Origin: a virus
Taxonomy: Duplodnaviria; Heunggongvirae; Uroviricota; Caudoviricetes
Reading direction: 5' to 3' (one strand)
DNA length: 13,542 bases
IMG/VR virus record: IMGVR_UViG_2690315994_000027
Location: 1-13,542 of that record
In this document: positions 414 through 11,029 of the stretch, one piece after another
How positions within the stretch are numbered: position 1 is the stretch's first letter
Layout: each line of letters opens with the position of its first letter
The notes under the pieces: model-generated
What the model was told of the DNA's origin: nothing
What the model saw: the letters and a program-made list of their open reading frames with translations, nothing else
Databases searched by the model: none
Position numbers and translations under genes: made by a program

Positions 414-486
414 AACATTTAAGCTGATGACCACCGCGCTTTTTATTGACCATTTTGCACGCAAACTGGAAAGCCTGGCGTCGTCA

Positions 487-497
487 TCTATTCTTAA
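487..497 (+). promoter_or_regulatory. Sigma-S type -10 element (TCTATTCTTAA) for SdsR
   Basis: Sequence resembles the RpoS -10 consensus TCTATACTTAA; sits 4-6 nt upstream of the proposed sRNA 5' end at about 501; no good -35, as is common for sigma-S promoters. Confidence 0.45.
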
Positions 498-500
498 AGG

Positions 501-603
501 GCAAGGCAACTAAGCCTGCATTAATGCCAACTTTTAGCGCACGGCTCTCTCCCAAGAGCCATTTCCCTGGACCGAATACAGGAATCGTATTCGGTCTTTT
601 TTT
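501..603 (+). ncRNA. sdsR: SdsR (RyeB) RpoS-dependent small RNA
   Basis: About 103 nt non-coding stretch beginning GCAAGGCAACTAAGCCTGCATTAATGCC and ending in a perfect terminator hairpin plus T8; matches my memory of E. coli SdsR/RyeB and its genomic context beside yebY. Boundaries approximate. Confidence 0.6.
571..603 (+). terminator. Intrinsic terminator (3' end of SdsR)
   Basis: Perfect 9-bp stem ACCGAATAC 571-579 / GTATTCGGT 587-595, 7-nt loop, then CTTTTTTT 596-603. Confidence 0.75.
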
Positions 604-604
604 A

Positions 605-631
605 ATTGTATTTAAAATCAATCAGTTGCAA
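605..631 (-). promoter_or_regulatory. Predicted minus-strand sigma70 promoter, candidate promoter of the antisense RNA RyeA/SraC
   Basis: On the minus strand: -35 TTGCAA (plus 626-631), 15-16 bp spacer, -10 TACAAT (plus 605-610). A transcript would run antisense across SdsR toward the bidirectional terminator at 372-413 (about 225 nt). Confidence 0.3.
616..628. promoter_or_regulatory. IHF consensus site in the attL P' arm
   Basis: AATCAATCAGTTG fits WATCAANNNNTTR exactly; lies between the presumed core (SdsR 3' end) and the tandem arm repeats, like H' in lambda attP. Confidence 0.45.
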
Positions 632-2164: not shown

Positions 2165-2353
2165 TCACGAGGACAGAAGTTTCTCGCAATTAAAATTTAT
2201 CAGCTTTACTTTCTGCTCTCTGGACACGCCTGCTTCTTTTTTCCCTGAGAGCATTTTTTCGCATTCTGATTTCGTTAATTTAGATTTTGAATATCTTGTC
2301 CAGTTAGTAGGAGTGCCACCTTCTTTTTCAATAGTGGCAGTAATTTTATACAT
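2165..2353 (-). CDS. Small basic hypothetical protein (62 aa), translationally coupled to lar (position of Rac ydaC)
   Basis: ATG at 2351-2353 lies inside the lar 3' end (ATGTATAA overlap) with GGAGG 5 nt upstream; the track's longer 86-aa version starts inside lar in another frame. Confidence 0.5.
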   Translation of the reverse strand: MYKITATIEKEGGTPTNWTRYSKSKLTKSECEKMLSGKKEAGVSREQKVKLINFNCEKLLSS

Positions 2354-2540
2354 GAACACCTCCATTATTATTTCCAGTAGTTCGTTTATTCCATCTTTCG
2401 AGTGCTTCTTTTTCACTTCCACCATAGCCAGTTCGGGATTCGCATCCGTTGCATTTTGCCCGGTAATATCCTGAAATTGCTTTCACCGTAACAGATGGAC
2501 AACCACAAAACGGACATGGTTTAACATCGTCATATCTCAT
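2346..2540 (-). CDS. ralR: Lar/RalR restriction-alleviation protein (zinc-ribbon; reported toxin of the RalR/RalA type I TA pair)
   Basis: MRYDDVKPCPFCGCPSVTVKAISGYYRAKCNGCESRTGYGGSEKEALERWNKRTTGNNNGGVHV, 64 aa from the ATG at 2540; CPFCG...C..C motif typical of the Lar family; the track's start at 2552 adds 4 residues; neither start has a strong SD. Confidence 0.8.
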   Translation of the reverse strand: MRYDDVKPCPFCGCPSVTVKAISGYYRAKCNGCESRTGYGGSEKEALERWNKRTTGNNNGGVHV

Positions 2541-2595
2541 AATTTTTGTCATAAAAACTGTCTCACGTTGGCGGGCATTACACCGCCAGGCTGAA

Positions 2596-3405
2596 TTATT
2601 CTTCTGAATTATCGATTACACTGTATTCCCCGGTTAATACAGAGGAGTCTGCCGGATCGATTGTCAGTGGTTCCTTTTCATCCATTGATACTGCACGCTG
2701 GATTTCAATTGAGACAGGCAGGTATTTAAACAGGCGACGAATAGCCGTTTTTTTTGCCATTTCTTCCCAGTGAGTTACCCACGGCCCGTTATTACCAGCC
2801 TTACTCTGGCTGCGCACCAGTTCAATCTGTTTGCGCGTCATAACTTCAAACTGAGTCCCTCCGTCTTTCAGTCTTGCGACAGCATAGACGTGGGTCACTG
2901 GTGCATCTTCGTTTTCTCCCGGGCGGTGTATTAACTTTTCATCAAGGCCAAATTCAAAACTAAACTCGTCACCTTCACGGACAACACGGGCTGACAGGCT
3001 GGCGATTTGACCAGAACGGCGAGCCAGATCAATCATGCCGCGATAACCAATGATTAGCTGAACGTTCTTTTTACCGCTCTTTTCGTTTTTATTACCAAAA
3101 GGCAGTAAATATGCGTGGCCGAGGGCGCTACCTGGCTCAAGGCCGAGCTGTGAACACTGAACGATCGCACTGACAAAACTCATGGTGTCACAGTTTCCTA
3201 GCGCCGGAACCTTACGAATTTCTGTGGTGGCGATACGTATCATTCGTTCAGCCGTCATATGGCGTGGGAGAGCTGCTGCCAGTTGCTCTTTCATTGATGG
3301 CTGATTAATAAAGCTGATCACGTCGTTATTTTTTACTGCTGCTGGTGCACGGTTTCCCTGGGTTTTTTGCAGATCGGCTTTTGCGATAGGTGGTTGCTTA
3401 GTCAT
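2596..3405 (-). CDS. recT: RecT single-strand annealing recombinase
   Basis: 269 aa from [24 protein letters not shown]...; recognised as E. coli RecT; AAGGAG 7 nt upstream of the ATG at 3405; start overlaps the recE stop (3398-3400). Confidence 0.95.
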
Positions 3406-6076
3406 TTGCATACTCCTTAGCCCAGCGGGGCAGTGATAACGTTTTAATAGCTGGCCATTCATCGGTATTCAGGCAGTCAGCCAGGGTCCTCAGATTGCGG
3501 TGATATTCCTGCTGGCCTGCCAGTTTTGCTTCTTCGCCCATCATGAAAATCTCAACCGGGTAACGTCCGCATTCAACAGTTGTGCTGGCAACCAGAAAAA
3601 CGAAAGTTGGCAGCACACCAAACTGTGCTTCATAACCGTCACTGTAGAATGCATCCTGAACGTGATAGCGGTAGTCGTAATAAGCCGTTTTGAATCGTTG
3701 AATATCCGCTGTGGTTTTCACGTCCATGATCCAGTGAAATTCAGGGATAATTTTGTCCGGACGGCACCGACACAAAATTCCTGTTTCAGGATCTTCCCAG
3801 TAAATTGATGATTCAGCGTGTCCGGCGCTTTCAACAAGCCATTGACCCAGCGGCAAAGCCATAACGCTCTGATACATGAGTTCAATTTTCCGGCCTTCTT
3901 CGGCAGTGATAACCGTTTTTCCTGTGCTTGCGCATTCCATCAGAAACGCTTTCTCCTCTTCTTTTCCGGCGGTTGTACGGCGGTTAAATTCAGGTGCCAC
4001 GATAAAGCGGTTACTGAATTCTTCCGGTTCAAGTACACGGCAGTGGAAAGCGGTTCCTAAATCGAGCGTTTTTGTCTTTGTGGTGTCCACTGGGGCATTT
4101 TTACGCCACAAATACAGAGCCGGAGTATCAGCAATGTCGTCGAGCTGAGACTTACTGACACCGGGACCCGCGTGGTAATTCTCATTCGAAATTCCGTAAT
4201 AAATACCAGGCTCTATGTCTCCTGCGATTACGGGATCTGCGACTTCGCCAGTTTCATCACTGCAATCGCGATGCGGATCGCTGCCAGCATTCTCCTTGTG
4301 TGGATGTTCAGCGCCTTCCATTTTCTCCGGCTCATTTTCCCGAACTTCAACCTGATTCTCGTCATCGAATGTTTCCTGATATGTTGCGTCGCCCATCACC
4401 GCACCACAGTCAGGGCAGTTATCCCCGCCAGACTGACCGCAGGCGGTGCAAACTTTCTCCGTTTCCTGTTGTTGCACTACTGGCTCAGGCTGTTTCGTTT
4501 CTGGCTCGTTTTGTTGCGTATTTGGGTCGTTCTGTTCCGCTTTCTGGTCGTTCTGTTCCGTTTCTGGCTGATTCTGGTATATAGAGTCGCGGGTCTGGAT
4601 CCCCTTAACCCATTTCGGGTCATTCGGGTCGCTAATCCCTTCAACAAATTCTCCGCGAGAGGCAGCCAGTAATTTGTCTGCATCGACAGGATTTTTTGGC
4701 GGAATGTTTTTCCGGGCTTCATGGAGTTCTGCCCGCAGTTCCAGATATTTCGCATCAACAGAATTTACCTGTGACTGAGCATCCAGCGGCTGCGTGTCCT
4801 GATGATGTTCAGTTGCATCCGGTTCCACTGTTTCAGCCGTTGCCTGTTCATCTGCCATTGCGCCAGATGGTTGCGGTTTTTCTTCGTCATCCTGTTTTTC
4901 TTCTTCTGTTACACGCTGCGGCATCGGGGCAGAGGAGCGACCACAGGCAATATCCACGATTTCTGGATCAGGGTTGGCATGATCGGTTTCAATAAGTACC
5001 TTGTTCAGATATTCAGTGACATGCGCAGTGATGACCTCGATACCAATTGGTGCTTCTTTCACGGCCGCAACCACGATGGCACGGGAATAATCCAGCCCAC
5101 CAGGCATGGCGATGAATTTGTCGCGGAAAACAGAAAAGGGCGGTTTATTTTCAGCGATAATTTCCTCGACACGTTTAGCGTGTGCCGGATGAAGGTTATA
5201 AATGTCCACGTCCATTGAACGAGCCAGTACGCCAGTGGCTACGTCGCGCGCCAGTGACGTCAGATCGTGAACGAAACCTTCGCCGCGATCGGTGAGGTTC
5301 CCGCCGCCAGCATTAGCGCCGGAAGCCGTGCGCGTGATGCGTGAAACACGATTTCCTTTCATCCACTCTTTTGTCAGCAGACCGCGATCGGTGTAGTCTG
5401 CGTCCAGGTATGCTTCGAAAAAAGCAGTCATCAGCCCCAGACTTGAATTGCCAGGATTAGGGAAAACTTTGTCAGTATCACGAACCAGTCTGTGAAGATC
5501 GCGAATCTCCAGCGGGTCGAGCAGGCTGGTTTTGTGGGAAACAGCCAGGGCAGTAACAGCTGGTAGTTCTTCAGCCCGTGCAATATGTAATACCTGGAGT
5601 TCGTCACGTGAAACGTGCGTTACCGGTTTTTCGCTGCCGTGTTGAGCAAGCCAGCGAATGGACAGCTCTTGGCCAGAAATCGGGAGTGGCATATTCTCCT
5701 CAATCTCAGTCATGTCTTCGCCATTAACATTGGTATTGTCAGTGCTGGCTGTTTTGTCCTGCGCAGAGGATGAGGGCGCGATAAATACCATTGTGATGCC
5801 ATCTTCCCCGCCTTTTTCGTAACGGTTGCAGAATTCCGTATCAAATACGCCTTCTGGTGGGAGGTCATCAACAACGGGCAAATTGACGCGAACAGGTTTT
5901 TTGAAGTCATCTTCATCGTATCCAGCATCGTCAATCGCAACAGCACCACGGGAGATGGCAATGGATAATTTTTTCGCTTCAGCCCAGTAGAAACCGCCTT
6001 TAATACCGAGACGTTTTCTTACTTTGTCATTTTTTGCTTCGTAATACAGTGGGTAAACTTGTTTATCGGTGCTCAT
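3398..6076 (-). CDS. recE: RecE exonuclease VIII (5'-3' dsDNA exonuclease)
   Basis: 892 aa; long central and C-terminal stretches ([42 protein letters not shown] ... [10 protein letters not shown]) match my recollection of RecE; the N-terminal about 100 aa and a linker repeat appear to differ from the K-12 protein as I remember it. Confidence 0.95.
4484..4567 (-). repeat. Four in-frame 21-bp tandem repeats inside recE (heptad peptide repeats [28 protein letters not shown])
   Basis: Direct repetition visible in the DNA (GGTCGTTCTGTTCCGCTTTCT / GGTCGTTCTGTTCCGTTTCTG / related flanking units); frame preserved. Confidence 0.7.
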
Positions 6077-7081: not shown

Positions 7082-7125
7082 AAAAAGGGGCGGCAGGGCA
7101 GCCACGGAGTAGAACTGATGCCGCC
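7082..7125 (-). terminator. Possible weak terminator for leftward transcription (tL-like)
   Basis: On the minus strand: GGCGGCA ... 23-nt loop ... TGCCGCC then CC and T5 (plus A5 at 7082-7086). Long loop and CC spacer make it weak. Confidence 0.25.
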
Positions 7126-7250
7126 AAAGACTACACATAGCAATTGTCGTTATTTACAACCGGAGGCGCACTCCCACCATTTAAATTTAACAGACAAGAC
7201 CGACTCTTTATGAATACCGGAAATGCGCCTTCGTGTTGTGCGCCTGTCTT

Positions 7251-7990: not shown

Positions 7991-8410
7991 TTACTCCGGT
8001 GGGGGATTATCTTTAAGCCTGCCTCTCAAATATTTTTCTACATACTCATCGATTTCTTTTAGCCGGACTTCAAATAGCTCAATCATTCGTTGTTGTTCTG
8101 AGCCCGGTAGCTGGTTAAACAACTCAAGAAGTTTTCGTTGGGATTCATTTAACCACAATTCAGAAGATTCCTGTTCTCCAAAGAGGAGCTCAGGAGGAGA
8201 TATGCCAAGTGCCTTTCCCAATACGACAGCGTCATGCACTCCAACATTTCTGCTGCCCGCCTCATAGTTACCTATACGCGATTGCGTCCATCCGCAGATT
8301 TCAGCAAGTTTTCCTTGAGATAAACCAAGCTTCTGCCTGCGCTCTTTAAGACGCATTGCAATTTTGTCATTGAGCCTACTAGCGGCAATTTTTTCGTTTT
8401 CTTTTTCCAT
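7991..8410 (-). CDS. Phage repressor, XRE/Cro-C1-type HTH, no S24 peptidase domain
   Basis: 139 aa; HTH segment LKERRQKLGLSQGKLAEICGWTQSRIGNYEAG; divergent from the Cro-like gene; no Ala-Gly / Ser...Lys autocleavage module recognisable in the C-terminal half. Confidence 0.85.
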   Translation of the reverse strand: MEKENEKIAASRLNDKIAMRLKERRQKLGLSQGKLAEICGWTQSRIGNYEAGSRNVGVHDAVVLGKALGISPPELLFGEQESSELWLNESQRKLLELFNQLPGSEQQRMIELFEVRLKEIDEYVEKYLRGRLKDNPPPE

Positions 8411-8506: not shown

Positions 8507-8749
8507 ATGAACAAAATTTCAACATATCGAAAACAGCTTGGGCTGTCTCAAAGACAACTTGCTGTTCAGTTAGGGTGGATACAAAGCCGACTGGCAAATT
8601 ACGAAGCAAATTTTCGTACCCCTGGACTAGAGGAGTGCAGAAAAATTGTTTCTACCCTTAATCGGCTTGGCGCTCATTGTGGACTTGACGATGTATTCCC
8701 CCCAGACGGTAAGCATAGCGAAAACAGCATAGGAGCGGTTGATTCATGA
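8507..8749 (+). CDS. Cro-like HTH (XRE family) protein, 80 aa (YdaS-like position)
   Basis: HTH segment YRKQLGLSQRQLAVQLGWIQSRLANYE; GGAGG 6 nt upstream of the ATG; divergent from the repressor; stop overlaps the next gene start (ATGA). Confidence 0.8.
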   Translation: MNKISTYRKQLGLSQRQLAVQLGWIQSRLANYEANFRTPGLEECRKIVSTLNRLGAHCGLDDVFPPDGKHSENSIGAVDS

Positions 8750-9168
8750 AAATCAGGCATGAGCACATCGAATCAGTGTTGTTAGCCCTGGCAGCCGAAA
8801 AAGGGCAGGCGTGGGTCGCTAACGCAATTACTGAAGAATATCTGCGCCAGGGGGGCGGCGAATTGCCCCTTGTACCAGGCAAGGACTGGAACAATCAGCA
8901 GAATATCTATCACCGTTGGTTGAAAGGTGAAACGAAAGCGCAAAGGGAAAAAATTCAGAAACTGATCCCTGCGGTTCTGGCAATTCTTCCGCGCGAGCTG
9001 CGTCACCGACTCTGCATCTTCGATACCCTGGAACGCCGTGCATTACTGGCGGCGCAGGAAGCGTTGAGTACGGCAATTGATGCGCATGATGATGCAGTCC
9101 AGGCCGTTTACCGGAAAGCACATTTCAGCGGTGGTGGGTCGCCCGGTGATTCTGTGGTGGTGCATTGA
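8746..9168 (+). CDS. ydaT: YdaT-like protein (140 aa), positional and reported functional analogue of lambda CII
   Basis: MKIRHEHIESVLLALAAEKGQAWVANAITEEYLRQGGGELPLV...; length and sequence match my recollection of Rac YdaT; ATGA coupling to the Cro-like gene. Confidence 0.75.
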   Translation: MKIRHEHIESVLLALAAEKGQAWVANAITEEYLRQGGGELPLVPGKDWNNQQNIYHRWLKGETKAQREKIQKLIPAVLAILPRELRHRLCIFDTLERRALLAAQEALSTAIDAHDDAVQAVYRKAHFSGGGSPGDSVVVH

Positions 9169-9226
9169 AGGTGGGGAACTATGCCGAATCGTATTTATTC
9201 GGCATTGGAAGATGTGTTATGTGCGA

Positions 9227-9442
9227 TTACGATTTTTTACCTGTTGCGCATTCATACGCTTTTGTAAGTGCGCTTATGAGCCCTGGAACATTTGCTATAG
9301 GTATATTCACTGATTCAGCAATTCCATATTCTGGATCAGGACTATTAGGGCATTCGTCAACGGTGATTATGAGCGCGTCAATTTCTTCGGTGTATTCAAC
9401 TGTTATTTGAGATTGGTGGGGGGCGGCGATAAATGTTTGCAT
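9227..9442 (-). CDS. Hypothetical small acidic protein (71 aa, about 10 D/E versus 3 K/R), opposite strand to the flanking replication operon
   Basis: ATG at 9442 preceded by AGGAGGAAGG; fills the otherwise empty 290-bp gap between ydaT and the O-like gene; predicted own promoter at 9507-9536. Confidence 0.45.
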   Translation of the reverse strand: MQTFIAAPHQSQITVEYTEEIDALIITVDECPNSPDPEYGIAESVNIPIANVPGLISALTKAYECATGKKS

Positions 9443-9460
9443 CCTTCCTCCTAAGGTTAA

Positions 9461-10276
9461 GTGGTTGTTATGTCGGCACTACCTTACATGCAATTGTATA
9501 TAGCTGATTATCTGGCAGATACCATGCATTTGTCTACAGAAGAGCACGGCGCGTATTTGTTGCTGATGTTCAATTACTGGCAAACAGGAAAGCCAATACC
9601 CAAAAACAGGTTGGCAAAAATTGCCCGTCTGACTAACGAGCGATGGGTTGATGTTGAACCATCCTTGCGGGAGTTTTTTTGTGATAACGGCGACGAATGG
9701 ATGCATCTTCGGATTGAGGAAGATCTGGCATCTGTCAGAGAAAAATTAACCAAAAAATCAGCCGCAGGAAAAGCATCTGTTCAGGCCAGAAGAAGCAGAA
9801 AGGAAGCAGATGTTCAAACAAAACAAGAGAGAAATTTAACAGGTGTTCAAACAGATGTTGGAGTGGTGTTTGAACATGATGCCAACACAAAGGCAACTAA
9901 TAAAGATACAGATAAAGATCTAAAAACAGATCCCCCCCTAAATCCCCCCCGGGGGAATCGAGGTGTCAAAAAATTTGACCCTCTGGATATTTCTTTGCCG
10001 AACTGGATTTCTGTCTCGCTTTGGCGTGAGTGGGTTGAATTTCGCCAGGCATTGCGAAAACCGATTCGAACGGAGCAGGGCGCTAACGGGGCTATACGGG
10101 AACTGGAAAAATTCCGTCAGCAGGGTTTTACACCTGAGCAGGTGATTCGACACAGCATCGCCAATGAATACCAGGGCCTGTTCGCGCCGAAAGGTGTTCG
10201 GCCTGAGACGTTGCTCCGACAGGTTAACACCGTCTCGTTGCCGGACAGTGCGATCCCGCCAGGCTTCAGGGGGTAA
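9461..10276 (+). CDS. Replication initiation protein, lambda O-like / DUF1376 (YdaU-like)
   Basis: 271 aa; position immediately upstream of the DnaC-like gene; central low-complexity linker containing iteron-like repeats; start may be GTG 9461 or ATG 9470 (both have weak RBS). Confidence 0.75.
   Translation: MVVMSALPYMQLYIADYLADTMHLSTEEHGAYLLLMFNYWQTGKPIPKNRLAKIARLTNERWVDVEPSLREFFCDNGDEWMHLRIEEDLASVREKLTKKSAAGKASVQARRSRKEADVQTKQERNLTGVQTDVGVVFEHDANTKATNKDTDKDLKTDPPLNPPRGNRGVKKFDPLDISLPNWISVSLWREWVEFRQALRKPIRTEQGANGAIRELEKFRQQGFTPEQVIRHSIANEYQGLFAPKGVRPETLLRQVNTVSLPDSAIPPGFRG
9507..9536 (-). promoter_or_regulatory. Predicted minus-strand promoter inside the 5' end of the O-like gene (position of lambda pO/oop)
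   Basis: Minus strand: -35 TAGACA (plus 9531-9536), 18-bp spacer, -10 GATAAT (plus 9507-9512). Confidence 0.35.
9809..9930. other. Candidate replication origin inside the O-like gene: iteron-like repeats plus an AT-rich stretch
   Basis: TGTTCAAACA at 9811-9820 and 9844-9853, inverted copy TGTTTGAACA at 9867-9876, followed by the AT-rich segment 9885-9930; analogous to lambda ori within gene O. Confidence 0.4.
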
Positions 10277-10282
10277 CGGACC

Positions 10283-11029
10283 ATGAAAAATATTGCGACA
10301 GGCGGCGTTCTGGAACGCATCCGCCGACTGACCCCGCCACATGTAACCGCCCCATTCAGAACGGTAGCGGAGTGGCGCGAGTGGCAACTTGCTGAAGGCC
10401 AGAAACGTAGCGAGGAGATCAACCGCCTGAATCGCCAGTTGCGGGTGGAAAAAATTCTGAATCGCTCAGGCATCCAGCCGTTGCACCGTAAATGCTCGTT
10501 TGCGAATTACCAGGTGCAGAACGACGGTCAGCGATACGCGTTAAGCCAGGCGAATTCCATCGCCGATGAACTGATGACCGGGTGTACAAATTTTGCGTTC
10601 AGCGGAAAACCTGGTACCGGGAAGAATCACTTAGCGGCAGCTATCGGGAATCGCCTGCTGAAAGACGGTCAGACAGTGATTGTGGTTACCGTGGCTGATG
10701 TTATGAGTGCCCTGCATGCCAGCTATGACGACGGGCAGTCAGGCGAAAAATTTTTGCGGGAACTGTGCGAAGTGGATCTGCTGGTTCTTGATGAAATTGG
10801 CATTCAGCGCGAGACGAAAAACGAGCAGGTGGTACTGCACCAGATTATTGATCGACGGACAGCGTCGATGCGTAGCGTGGGAATGCTGACAAATCTGAAC
10901 TATGAGGCCATGAAAACATTGCTCGGTGAGCGGATTATGGATCGCATGACCATGAACGGCGGACGCTGGGTGAATTTTAACTGGGAGAGCTGGCGTCCGA
11001 ATGTCGTCCAGCCAGGAATTGCGAAGTAA
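10283..11029 (+). CDS. DnaC-like helicase loader / IstB-type AAA+ ATPase (YdaV-like)
   Basis: 248 aa; Walker [16 protein letters not shown], Walker B LLVLDEIG; 7 nt downstream of the O-like gene. Confidence 0.9.

What the first reader, a model, noticed from the sequence alone, without database searches (positions are those of the whole stretch)
9183..9536. Opposite-strand acidic 71-aa gene with its own promoter at the lambda oop position (between the CII-like and O-like genes)
A minus-strand ORF with a very strong SD (AGGAGGAAGG) fills the gap between ydaT and the O-like gene and is driven by a predicted promoter (TAGACA, 18 bp, GATAAT) inside the 5' end of the O-like gene. That is where lambda encodes the antisense oop RNA, but here the leftward transcript would carry a strongly acidic small protein and end near a hairpin (9183-9203) just past the ydaT stop. 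Small acidic opposite-strand genes in phage early regions are often morons or anti-defence/DNA-mimic proteins; the transcript would also be antisense to the ydaT 3' region.
Basis: inference. Interest (0 to 1): 0.6.

Follow-up and report, generated by a model that had tools for sequence, protein, structure and literature searches.

The report
Backward small gene beside prophage replication gene
A real, conserved 71-residue acidic protein of unknown function is encoded backwards just ahead of a prophage's replication gene, and its predicted promoter is written into the first codons of that gene, much as phage lambda places its oop antisense RNA.

Summary
The minus-strand ORF 9227-9442, its Shine-Dalgarno sequence, the promoter-like site 9536..9507 and the hairpin 9181-9205 are all present.

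- **Real gene.** The reading frame is kept in 9 lineages (27-96% identity). dN/dS is 0.036 in the one pair where it could be computed. The window's only full-length match among 5,426 complete E. coli genomes differs at 4 bases, all synonymous.
- **Family.** It matches phrog_21876 (unknown function), has no Pfam or NCBIfam model, and is confined to prophages of Enterobacterales.
- **Position.** It always lies inverted between the CII analogue (usually YdaT) and the replication initiator, with its ATG 27-38 nt from that gene's start.
- **Linkage.** It travels with the replication module, not with the immunity/CII module.
- **Cassette.** Against a near-identical prophage that lacks it, the window carries a cassette at about 9156-9541. 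This includes recoded ydaU codons 2-24, which hold the promoter.
- **Promoter.** The -10 hexamer reads GATAAT here; 78 of 80 loci without the gene read GGTAAT or AGTAAT.
- **No canonical terminator.** The hairpin has no U-tract and is not conserved in the other lineages.
- **No support for a DNA mimic or anti-defence role.** The predicted fold (three strands and a helix, pLDDT 82) has no significant structural match.

Most likely it is a lambda pO/oop-like leftward unit that also encodes a protein: a brake on replication-gene expression, plus a small acidic binding protein whose target is unknown.

The parts
9227..9442 (-). Small gene for a 71-aa acidic protein (net charge -7, pI 4.2); member of phrog_21876, function unknown
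   Evidence: ORF listing. PHROG match E = 1.2e-18 over the full length. Homologues of 67-72 aa in 17 clusters, plus one truncated 58-aa member. dN/dS 0.036, and 4 of 4 differences from strain CE0021a are synonymous. PGAP calls it hypothetical protein WP_087891163.1. AlphaFold2 pLDDT 82: strands at 12-18, 23-29 and 42-48, helix at 49-67.
9443..9452 (-). Shine-Dalgarno sequence AGGAGGAAGG of the small gene
   Evidence: Read directly from the sequence. A GGAG or GGA motif sits at the same distance from the start codon in every lineage.
9443..9500 (-). Predicted 5' UTR of the leftward mRNA (start site inferred at about 9499-9501). It is complementary to the ydaU ribosome-binding region and start codon (9470-9472).
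   Evidence: Follows from the position of the -10 hexamer and the sequence. The gap between the two divergent start codons is 27-38 nt in all lineages. The start site itself is inferred, not measured.
9507..9536 (-). Predicted sigma-70 promoter: -35 TAGACA (9536..9531), 18-nt spacer, -10 GATAAT (9512..9507). It lies in ydaU codons 13-15 and 21-23.
   Evidence: Found by the scan. The same site is the top hit (10 of 12) in L008, L020, L024, L027 and L029. Of 80 ydaU loci without the small gene, 78 read GGTAAT or AGTAAT at the -10 position. Synonymous-codon identity is 0.76 in codons 12-23 against 0.48 elsewhere, p = 0.0024.
9181..9205 (-). Hairpin carried by the cassette (9-bp perfect stem, 7-nt loop), 21 nt past the small gene's stop codon. 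It may mark or stabilise the transcript's 3' end. It is not a canonical intrinsic terminator.
   Evidence: -11.7 kcal/mol, z = -3.6 on the minus-strand RNA. No U-tract and not called as a terminator. Absent from the gene-less prophage L032. Not conserved in other lineages.
9156..9541 (.). The whole cassette that separates this prophage from near-identical prophages without the gene. It comprises the last codons of ydaT, the hairpin, the small gene, both ribosome-binding sites, and recoded ydaU codons 2-24 holding the promoter.
   Evidence: Window against L032: 97.4% identity up to 9155, then 12 differences in ydaU nt 4-72, then none in nt 73-396. Only 1 of 5,426 complete E. coli genomes has the full stretch. 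GC content is 41.7% (GC3 31%), against 53% for ydaT and 47% for ydaU.
9470..10276 (+). ydaU-type replication initiator (DUF1376), the gene that hosts the promoter and is the likely antisense target
   Evidence: Pfam PF07120, E = 9e-25. PGAP annotation 'YdaU family protein', starting at the ATG that corresponds to 9470.
8746..9168 (+). ydaT (CII-position gene), convergent with the small gene. Antisense overlap occurs only if the leftward transcript passes the hairpin.
   Evidence: Pfam PF06254, E = 5e-11. The minus-strand RNA over 9226-9129 is C-rich and G-poor (C/G ratio 2.2-2.9), which could be a Rho loading site (heuristic only).

Best explanation
This is a real accessory gene of the prophage's replication module, not of its immunity module.

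A sigma-70 promoter is written into synonymous positions of ydaU codons 13-23. It drives a leftward mRNA that starts about 30 nt inside ydaU. That mRNA runs antisense across ydaU's start codon and ribosome-binding site, then encodes a 71-aa acidic protein with three strands and a helix. It ends at or beyond a hairpin without a U-tract, possibly through Rho.

The unit probably works at two levels.
1. Like lambda pO/oop, its transcription converges on the rightward early (pR-type) transcript, and its 5' UTR pairs with the ydaU translation start. Both would damp expression of the replication genes, mainly when rightward transcription is low, as in a lysogen or while lysogeny is being established.
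2. The protein is under strong purifying selection. It most likely acts by binding another protein, probably a component or host partner of the replication module it travels with.

Shown: the gene is real, its position is conserved, it is linked to the replication module, the cassette has defined boundaries, and the promoter motif is conserved. Inferred: promoter activity, the transcription start site, the antisense and interference effect, and the protein's target.
For: - Coding: the frame is open in all 9 lineages, while every other frame carries stops in at least two of them. L003 against L018 shows 17 synonymous and 3 non-synonymous changes, dN/dS 0.036. The window and CE0021a differ at 4 bases, all synonymous third positions. 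The PHROG match is full length.
- Position: the gene is inverted between the CII analogue and the replication initiator in every locus examined, with the two start codons 27-38 nt apart.
- Linkage: pairwise identity of the small protein tracks that of the initiator (Spearman 0.66). It does not track YdaT/CII (0.00), Cro (-0.19) or CI (0.17). DNA homology blocks between lineages run from the initiator's N-terminal domain through the small gene and stop at or within about 30 nt beyond its stop codon.
- Promoter: a 10-of-12 site sits at the same place in all six DUF1376-linked lineages. The cassette's right boundary falls 5 nt beyond the -35 hexamer. Loci without the gene lack the essential A at position 2 of the -10 hexamer in 78 of 80 cases. 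Synonymous sites are more conserved across the promoter codons.
- Lambda precedent: pO sits at the start of gene O, converges on pR, lowers pR read-through and affects replication (PMC3985674). An OOP-like RNA occupies the same position in Salmonella prophage BTP1 (PMC7067206).
- Protein: the whole family is acidic (net -5 to -10), and the fold is predicted with confidence.
Against: - No transcription or translation data exist for this locus.
- The promoter has an 18-nt spacer. As a single match it is no better than chance.
- The two Serratia lineages, whose DnaT-type initiator has a different N-terminus, show no sigma-70-like site upstream of the gene. The promoter model is therefore not universal.
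- The promoter motif lies in codons for a very conserved peptide, so part of its conservation reflects constraint on the protein.
- The lineages are not independent, so the p-values are indicative only.
- Linkage to the initiator could simply follow from the promoter being embedded in that gene.
- No structural or sequence relative hints at a replication function.
- The gene is sporadic: about 17 of roughly 335 ydaU-type viral contigs and 1 of about 1,000 complete E. coli genomes with ydaU. It is dispensable for the module.
Confidence: 0.4

Rival explanations
1. It is a classic moron. The lysogen expresses this accessory gene from its own promoter while the early operon is repressed, and its protein benefits the host, for example by excluding superinfecting phage or through another defence or fitness function. 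It would have no regulatory role in the prophage's own replication.
For: - Presence is sporadic among otherwise near-identical prophages.
- It has its own predicted promoter.
- Its base composition is atypical: GC 41.7% and GC3 31%, against 47-53% in its neighbours.
- It points the same way as the repressor gene and against the lytic genes. Owen et al. describe that layout as typical of accessory loci (PMC7067206).
Against: - It is always at one position and always linked to the replication module, rather than moving freely.
- There is no PADLOC match.
- It has no canonical terminator.
- Its mRNA must overlap the ydaU translation start, so some effect in cis is hard to avoid.
Confidence: 0.27
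2. It is an anti-defence protein or DNA mimic. A small acidic protein would block restriction-modification or another host defence early in infection.
For: - The family is uniformly acidic, with pI 4.05-5.2.
- The protein is small and probably dimeric, with three strands and a helix.
Against: - The net charge of -7 over 71 aa is modest, and only five alignment columns are consistently acidic.
- The gene opposes the early operon. Convergent pR transcription would hamper it during the first minutes of infection, which is when an anti-restriction protein is needed.
- The family is almost absent from sequenced phage isolates; the only match is a truncated copy in Salmonella phage SW-37.
Confidence: 0.06
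3. It antagonises the CII-position protein (YdaT). It could act as an antitoxin-like inhibitor, or its mRNA could act as an oop-like antisense RNA against the 3' end of ydaT, tuning the lysis-lysogeny decision.
For: - It is convergent with ydaT in 8 of 9 lineages.
- In L027 the stop codons overlap by 4 nt, and the gaps are 8 nt in L029 and 13 nt in L020. There the leftward transcript must run antisense into ydaT.
- This is how lambda oop acts on cII (PMC3985674).
Against: - The small protein does not co-vary with YdaT (Spearman 0.00). L008 and L020 share a 96% identical small protein yet carry unrelated neighbours: a lambda-CII-like gene plus a zinc-finger ORF in one, YdaT in the other.
- The mosaic joint lies exactly between the small gene and the CII analogue.
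- In the window, a 58-nt gap and a hairpin separate the gene from ydaT.
- In the Serratia lineages another 79-80-aa gene lies between them.
Confidence: 0.1
4. It is not a functional gene: a chance ORF on the antisense strand of an intergenic insert.
For: - It has no annotated function.
- Gene callers sometimes also predict an overlapping ORF on the other strand. Examples are the 94-aa call in L021 and the 81-aa plus-strand ORF at 9165-9410 in the window.
Against: - dN/dS is 0.036.
- Length, start and stop are conserved in 16 of 17 clusters across 8 genera.
- The alternative frames carry stops, or show more non-synonymous than synonymous change.
Confidence: 0.02

Closest known systems
Phage lambda pO promoter and oop antisense RNA
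   Same: - It is a leftward transcription unit between the CII-position gene and the replication initiator.
- Its promoter sits at or inside the start of the initiator gene and converges on pR. [quoted passage not shown]
- It belongs to the replication region.
- An equivalent RNA occupies the same position in Salmonella prophage BTP1 (PMC7067206).
   Different: - oop is a 77-nt non-coding RNA with an intrinsic terminator. It overlaps the 3' end of cII and acts on cII mRNA through RNase III.
- Here the transcript would be at least 320 nt and encodes a conserved 71-aa protein.
- It starts about 30 nt inside the initiator gene, so it covers that gene's ribosome-binding site.
- It has no canonical terminator, and in this window it need not reach ydaT.
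- There is no sequence similarity to oop, and Rfam finds nothing in this region.
Morons of lambdoid phages (for example lambda bor and lom, HK97 gp15)
   Same: - Presence and absence vary among close relatives.
- It has its own predicted promoter.
- Its GC content is atypical.
- Its orientation is compatible with expression from the repressed prophage.
   Different: - It sits inside the early rightward operon and is inverted.
- It has no terminator.
- Its position is fixed and linked to one module across genera.
- Its promoter is built into the coding sequence of the neighbouring essential gene.
Dual-function RNAs, which regulate by base-pairing and also encode a small protein (SgrS/SgrT, RNAIII/hld, SR1/SR1P); comparison from general knowledge
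   Same: One transcript would both pair with a target message, here the ydaU translation start in cis, and encode a small protein under selection.
   Different: - Those are trans-acting RNAs with imperfect pairing.
- This would be a fully complementary cis-antisense mRNA.
- The RNA-level function is only inferred here.
phrog_21876 (PHROGs v4, unknown function)
   Same: Full-length profile match: residues 1-70 against profile positions 1-70 of 71, E = 1.2e-18.
   Different: The PHROG carries no function, context or mechanism. The conserved position, the module linkage and the embedded promoter are findings of this analysis.
Small dimerising folds of several beta-strands and a helix: PUR repeat (Pur-alpha), PC4/Whirly-like ssDNA binders, COMM domain
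   Different: - The scores are weak, and Foldseek finds nothing significant in PDB or BFVD.
- Those nucleic-acid binders are basic, whereas this family is acidic.
- There is no sequence similarity.

Membership tests
lambda oop / pO antisense unit | Leftward promoter at the start of the replication-initiator gene, convergent with pR | tested here: met
   A predicted sigma-70 site at 9536..9507 inside ydaU codons 13-23, conserved in six lineages. This is a prediction only; promoter activity was not measured.
lambda oop / pO antisense unit | Short (~77 nt) non-coding RNA | tested here: not met
   The transcript contains a 71-codon ORF under purifying selection.
lambda oop / pO antisense unit | Intrinsic terminator that defines the 3' end within the CII gene | tested here: not met
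   The hairpin at 9181-9205 has no U-tract, lies outside ydaT and is not conserved.
lambda oop / pO antisense unit | [quoted passage not shown] | tested here: inconclusive
   In the window this needs read-through past 9181. In L027, L029 and L020 the convergent genes overlap by 4 nt or lie only 8-13 nt apart, so overlap is unavoidable there.
lambda oop / pO antisense unit | RNase III-dependent down-regulation of the target; effect on replication | not testable with these tools
   Requires experiments.
Moron (Hendrix-type accessory transcription unit) | Present in some and absent from closely related phage genomes, with sharp boundaries | tested here: met
   The cassette at 9156-9541 is absent from L032, which is 97% identical on one side and 100% on the other. 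Only 1 of 5,426 complete E. coli genomes carries it.
Moron (Hendrix-type accessory transcription unit) | Own promoter and own terminator | tested here: inconclusive
   A promoter is predicted and conserved. No canonical terminator is present.
Moron (Hendrix-type accessory transcription unit) | Base composition different from the neighbouring genes | tested here: met
   GC 41.7% and GC3 31%, against ydaT at 53% and 55% and ydaU at 47% and 45%.
Moron (Hendrix-type accessory transcription unit) | Expressed from the repressed prophage | not testable with these tools
   No transcriptome data are available for a carrier strain.
DNA-mimic / anti-restriction proteins (Ocr, ArdA and similar) | Sequence or structural similarity to a known mimic, or a surface array of acidic residues that imitates the DNA backbone | tested here: not met
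phrog_21876 | Significant full-length match to the family profile | tested here: met
   E = 1.2e-18, residues 1-70 against profile positions 1-70 of 71.
Antitoxin or inhibitor paired with 'toxin YdaT' | Co-inheritance and co-variation with the YdaT partner | tested here: not met
   Spearman 0.00. A 96% identical small protein occurs next to a non-YdaT CII-like gene, and the mosaic joint lies between the two genes.
PC4 / Pur-alpha / Whirly-like ssDNA-binding fold | Significant structural match and a basic nucleic-acid-binding surface | tested here: inconclusive

The most novel reading that the evidence does not exclude
The unit could be a self-contained replication brake carried by the replication module. 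One leftward mRNA would silence the initiator gene in cis, through convergent transcription and pairing across its ribosome-binding site. The same mRNA would encode a small acidic protein that binds the initiator or a host replication factor it recruits. Lysogens would then block both runaway replication of their own prophage and replication of incoming phages with the same replication module. In effect, this would be a protein-coding, module-specific relative of lambda pO/oop that gives immunity at the level of replication.
Probability: 0.15. Interest if true: 0.7.

Novelty: new variant of a known kind. Interest (0 to 1): 0.45.

Why it matters
Lambda's pO/oop unit has been studied for decades. 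Its role at the border between lysogeny control and replication is still debated (PMC3985674).

This locus is a natural variant at the same position. Here the leftward transcript carries a conserved protein, and the promoter has been written into synonymous sites of the replication initiator's first 24 codons.

If the unit is active, it offers two things:
- a clean system for separating RNA-level control (antisense pairing and transcriptional interference) from protein-level control of prophage replication;
- a function for an uncharacterised protein family that is widespread in prophages of Salmonella, E. coli, Klebsiella, Serratia and Pantoea.

It also shows how an accessory gene can become physically locked to an essential neighbour by sharing sequence with it. 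If the protein proves to be an ordinary moron product, the finding is of modest interest.

Tried and rejected
- **Family searches.** Pfam, NCBIfam and PADLOC gave no hit for the small protein. Scanning all 17 family members against Pfam gave only marginal hits (WapI, E = 0.007 in 2 members), treated as noise.
- **PDB sequence profile.** Nothing scored below E = 0.1.
- **Sequenced phages.** tblastn with the window protein and with P0007 found nothing. P0005 hit only a truncated copy in Salmonella phage SW-37.
- **Spurious hits.** Two large repeat proteins from the exhaustive HMMER search, P0003 (1,887 aa) and P0008 (344 aa), were rejected as artefacts of summed repeat scores.
- **Alternative ORF.** The plus-strand ORF at 9165-9410 (81 aa) was rejected. 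The corresponding antisense frames carry stops in several lineages or show more non-synonymous than synonymous change.
- **Intrinsic terminator.** None was found after the small gene in the window or in L008, L020, L027 and L029. L024 has only a weak candidate.
- **Promoter in Serratia loci.** No sigma-70-like site was found.
- **Rfam.** No RNA family matched within 9100-9600.
- **5' UTR structure.** It folds no better than shuffled sequence, z = -0.2.
- **LexA box.** An inspection by eye around the promoter found none with correct spacing. This was not formally tested.
- **Literature.** Searches on ydaT/ydaU and on DUF1376 found no paper that mentions this gene.
Full report
**Setting**

The window is the early region of a Rac-like lambdoid prophage. 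The gene order is:
- integrase and excisionase;
- RalR/RalA, RecT and RecE;
- a KilR region;
- a CI-like repressor (7991-8410, minus strand);
- a Cro/YdaS-position HTH gene (8507-8749, plus strand);
- ydaT (8746-9168, plus strand; PF06254);
- the small minus-strand ORF (9227-9442);
- a ydaU/DUF1376 replication initiator (ATG at 9470, ending at 10276);
- a DnaC-like ATPase (10283-11029).

This order rests, and on the PGAP annotation of a 98.4% identical locus in E. coli CE0021a.

Yes. All the features are at the stated coordinates.
- The ORF encodes 71 aa with net charge -7 and pI 4.18.
- The Shine-Dalgarno sequence AGGAGGAAGG lies at 9452..9443.
- The promoter-like site is TAGACA, an 18-nt spacer, then GATAAT, at 9536..9507. 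It matches 10 of 12 consensus positions and is the only such site in 8900-9800.
- The hairpin is a perfect 9-bp stem at 9181-9189 and 9197-9205. As minus-strand RNA it folds at -11.7 kcal/mol, z = -3.6.

Two caveats apply. A single promoter-like match is about what chance gives in that stretch (1.1 expected). The hairpin has no U-tract on either strand, and the scan does not call it a terminator.

**2. Is it a gene?**

Yes.
- The protein matches phrog_21876 (unknown function) over its full length, E = 1.2e-18.
- An exhaustive HMMER search of 1.8 billion representative proteins found five real homologous clusters of 67-71 aa, at 36-55% identity. Two further hits were large repeat proteins and were rejected.
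- A profile search raised the family to 17 clusters.
- Hosts are E. coli, E. albertii, Salmonella enterica (hundreds of contigs), Raoultella, Klebsiella aerogenes, Pluralibacter, Serratia and Pantoea. Every member that carries a name is annotated as hypothetical or uncharacterised.
- The window and CE0021a differ at four bases within the ORF, all synonymous third positions.
- L003 against L018 shows 17 synonymous and 3 non-synonymous changes, dN/dS 0.036.
- The sense frame is open in all nine lineages. Every other frame has stops in at least two of them, or shows pN above pS.

**3. Anatomy and context**

In every locus examined, the gene is inverted between the CII-position gene and the replication initiator. 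Its ATG lies 27-38 nt from the initiator's start codon.

Both neighbours vary.
- The left neighbour is usually a YdaT variant. In L008 it is a lambda-CII-like protein plus a zinc-finger ORF. In Serratia an extra gene of about 80 aa intervenes.
- The right neighbour is a DUF1376 initiator, a DUF1376-DnaT fusion, or a DnaT-only initiator. The helicase loader is either lambda-P-like or DnaC/IstB-like.

The gene travels with the right-hand replication module.
- Pairwise identity of the small protein correlates with that of the initiator (Spearman 0.66). It does not correlate with YdaT/CII (0.00), Cro (-0.19) or CI (0.17).
- DNA homology blocks between lineages run from the initiator's N-terminal domain through the small gene. 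They end at its stop codon or within about 30 nt beyond it.

The gene is sporadic.
- Only 1 of 5,426 complete E. coli genomes has the full stretch, while about 1,000 have ydaU.
- All 80 of the best ydaU-type viral contigs lack it.
- 17 viral contigs carry it.

Against a near-identical prophage without the gene (L032), identity is 97.4% up to 9155. The inserted DNA follows. Then come 12 differences within ydaU nt 4-72 (window 9473-9541), and then none in nt 73-396.

The cassette therefore spans about 9156-9541. It carries the hairpin, the ORF, both ribosome-binding sites and a recoded version of ydaU codons 2-24. Its right edge lies 5 nt beyond the -35 hexamer.

Its composition is atypical: GC 41.7% and GC3 31%, against 53% for ydaT and 47% for ydaU.

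**4. The promoter**

The -10 hexamer occupies ydaU codons 13-15 (GAT TAT C). The -35 hexamer occupies codons 21-23 (TG TCT A).

- All six DUF1376-linked lineages keep TAGACA or TGGACA, an 18-nt spacer, and GATAAT or AATAAT. In each, this is the top-scoring site at that position.
- Among the 80 loci without the gene, 78 read GGTAAT or AGTAAT, because Tyr14 is TAC rather than TAT. They therefore lack the A at position 2 of the -10 hexamer, which sigma-70 requires (established knowledge).
- Among gene-bearing lineages, synonymous-codon identity is 0.76 in codons 12-23 and 0.48 elsewhere. Mann-Whitney p = 0.0024, but the lineages are not independent.

Against the promoter model:
- the 18-nt spacer is not optimal;
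- the peptide encoded here is itself extremely conserved;
- the two Serratia lineages, with a different initiator N-terminus, show no sigma-70-like site.

**5. The 3' end**

No canonical intrinsic terminator follows the gene in the window or in four of the other DUF1376-linked lineages. L024 has only a weak candidate.

The window's hairpin belongs to the cassette, since L032 lacks it. It is not conserved in the other lineages.

Downstream of the stop codon, the minus-strand RNA is C-rich and G-poor, with a C/G ratio of 2.2-2.9 over 9226-9129. Rho-dependent termination inside the ydaT antisense region is therefore possible, but this is only a heuristic.

In L027 the stop codons of the two convergent genes overlap by 4 nt. 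The gaps are 8 nt in L029 and 13 nt in L020. In those lineages, antisense overlap with the CII analogue is unavoidable. In the window the gap is 58 nt.

**6. The protein**

AlphaFold2 gives a confident small fold with pLDDT 81-82. Strands lie at 12-18, 23-29 and 42-48, and a helix at 49-67.

- Foldseek finds nothing significant in PDB or BFVD.
- The family is uniformly acidic, with net charge -5 to -10. That argues against the nucleic-acid binding typical of PC4 and Pur-alpha.
- Invariant residues are His9, Ile13, Pro32 and Pro53. The helix motif LIxAL is nearly invariant.
- Nothing links the protein to known defence or anti-defence proteins.

**7. How it most likely works**

The geometry is shown. 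A transcript starting about 7 nt downstream of the -10 hexamer, near 9500, has a 5' UTR of about 58 nt. That UTR is fully complementary to the ydaU ribosome-binding site and start codon at 9470. The whole unit converges on the rightward early transcript, which must cross it to express ydaU and the helicase loader.

This is the architecture of lambda pO/oop, which sits at the start of gene O. In lambda:
- pO lowers pR-derived transcription downstream and affects replication (PMC3985674);
- oop RNA down-regulates cII (Krinke and Wulff, cited in PMC3985674);
- an OOP-like RNA occupies the same position in Salmonella prophage BTP1 (PMC7067206).

I therefore infer a pO/oop-like brake aimed mainly at the replication initiator. 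To this is added a protein under strong purifying selection that probably binds another protein. Its linkage to the replication module makes a replication component or host partner the best guess.

What remains untested: promoter activity, the transcription start site, the antisense effect and the protein's target. Confidence in the composite explanation is about 0.4.

**8. Rival explanations**

- **Ordinary lysogen-expressed moron, for example for exclusion (0.27).** The sporadic distribution, odd GC content and own promoter fit. The fixed position, the module linkage and the missing terminator fit less well.
- **Antagonist of YdaT/CII (0.10).** The absence of co-variation and the mosaic joint between the two genes argue against it.
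- **DNA mimic or anti-defence protein (0.06).** No similarity was found. The orientation is wrong for expression early in infection. The family is almost absent from sequenced phage isolates.
- **Chance ORF (0.02).** The dN/dS result refutes it.

**9. Comparison with what is known, and novelty**

The protein family is already catalogued, but only as a PHROG of unknown function and as 'hypothetical protein'. There is no Pfam model, and no paper was found that mentions the gene.

The unit fails three defining features of oop: it is not non-coding, it has no intrinsic terminator, and it does not clearly overlap the CII-position gene. It should not be filed as an oop homologue, although it may work like pO/oop.

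It meets most of the moron criteria but not all. I rate it a new variant of a known kind. Interest is moderate (0.45). The notable points are the promoter embedded in the recoded first 24 codons of the neighbouring essential gene, the strict linkage to the replication module, and the possibility of a dual-function antisense mRNA.

Noticed in passing
window 463-607 (both strands): Rfam finds the host sRNA pair SraC/RyeA (463-607, minus strand) and SdsR/RyeB (504-603, plus strand) just left of the integrase gene, and the first ORF (1-342) encodes a secreted protein that looks like host sequence. The prophage therefore appears to be integrated next to the ryeA/ryeB locus.
   Followed up: no
window 2169-2347 (+) and 2165-2552 (-): The RalA antitoxin sRNA (Rfam, 221 bits) overlaps the region that PGAP annotates as RalR in the related strain. 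This indicates an intact RalR/RalA type I toxin-antitoxin pair.
   Followed up: no
window 7088-7139 (-): A DicF antisense sRNA (Rfam, 60.9 bits, full length) lies in the kil/immunity-left region of this Rac-like prophage.
   Followed up: no
window 9487-9503 and 9523-9539: A 17-nt direct repeat (CATGCAATTGTATATAG and CATGCATTTGTCTACAG, 82% identical, 36 nt apart) brackets the predicted promoter. One copy overlaps the -35 hexamer and the other the predicted start site. It is also largely present in ydaU genes without the small gene. It may reflect the repeated peptide (MQLY and MHLS) or be a regulator-binding site.
   Followed up: partly
L042 and L090 (ydaU loci without the small gene), locus positions 1238-1243: Two of the 80 gene-less ydaU loci still read GATAAT at the -10 position, with CTGACA at -35. 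They may produce a short non-coding antisense RNA across the ydaU start, which would be a closer analogue of lambda oop.
   Followed up: no
L021 3968-4252 (-) and window 9165-9410 (+): Gene callers and the ORF listing give an overlapping ORF on the operon strand, opposite the small gene (94 aa in L021, 81 aa in the window). Substitution patterns and stops in other lineages argue against it. The antisense frame is nevertheless open in 6 of 9 lineages, which could mislead automatic annotation.
   Followed up: yes
Salmonella phage SW-37, CP051275.1, 20885-20974 (-): This is the only sequenced phage isolate with a match, and it carries just the C-terminal 30 codons of the Salmonella-type small gene (96.7% identity). 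It is a truncated remnant.
   Followed up: no
window 9461 versus 9470: The mechanical ORF for ydaU starts at GTG 9461. PGAP, and the alignment with all relatives (MAALPYMQ...), support ATG 9470. In gene-less E. coli loci, PGAP instead extends ydaU 17 codons upstream (L002, 2452).
   Followed up: partly
L008 4252-4530 (-), next to the small gene: In the Salmonella-type lineage, the left neighbour of the small gene is a 92-aa ORF with a CxxC...CxxC zinc-finger-like motif. A lambda-CII-like 143-aa protein follows, in place of YdaT.
   Followed up: no
window 3398-6076 (-): The RecE (exonuclease VIII) gene encodes 892 aa here. It has a long acidic, Gln/Glu/Pro-rich low-complexity linker and overlaps the start of recT. 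The related strain CE0021a carries a longer, 3,147-nt version.
   Followed up: no
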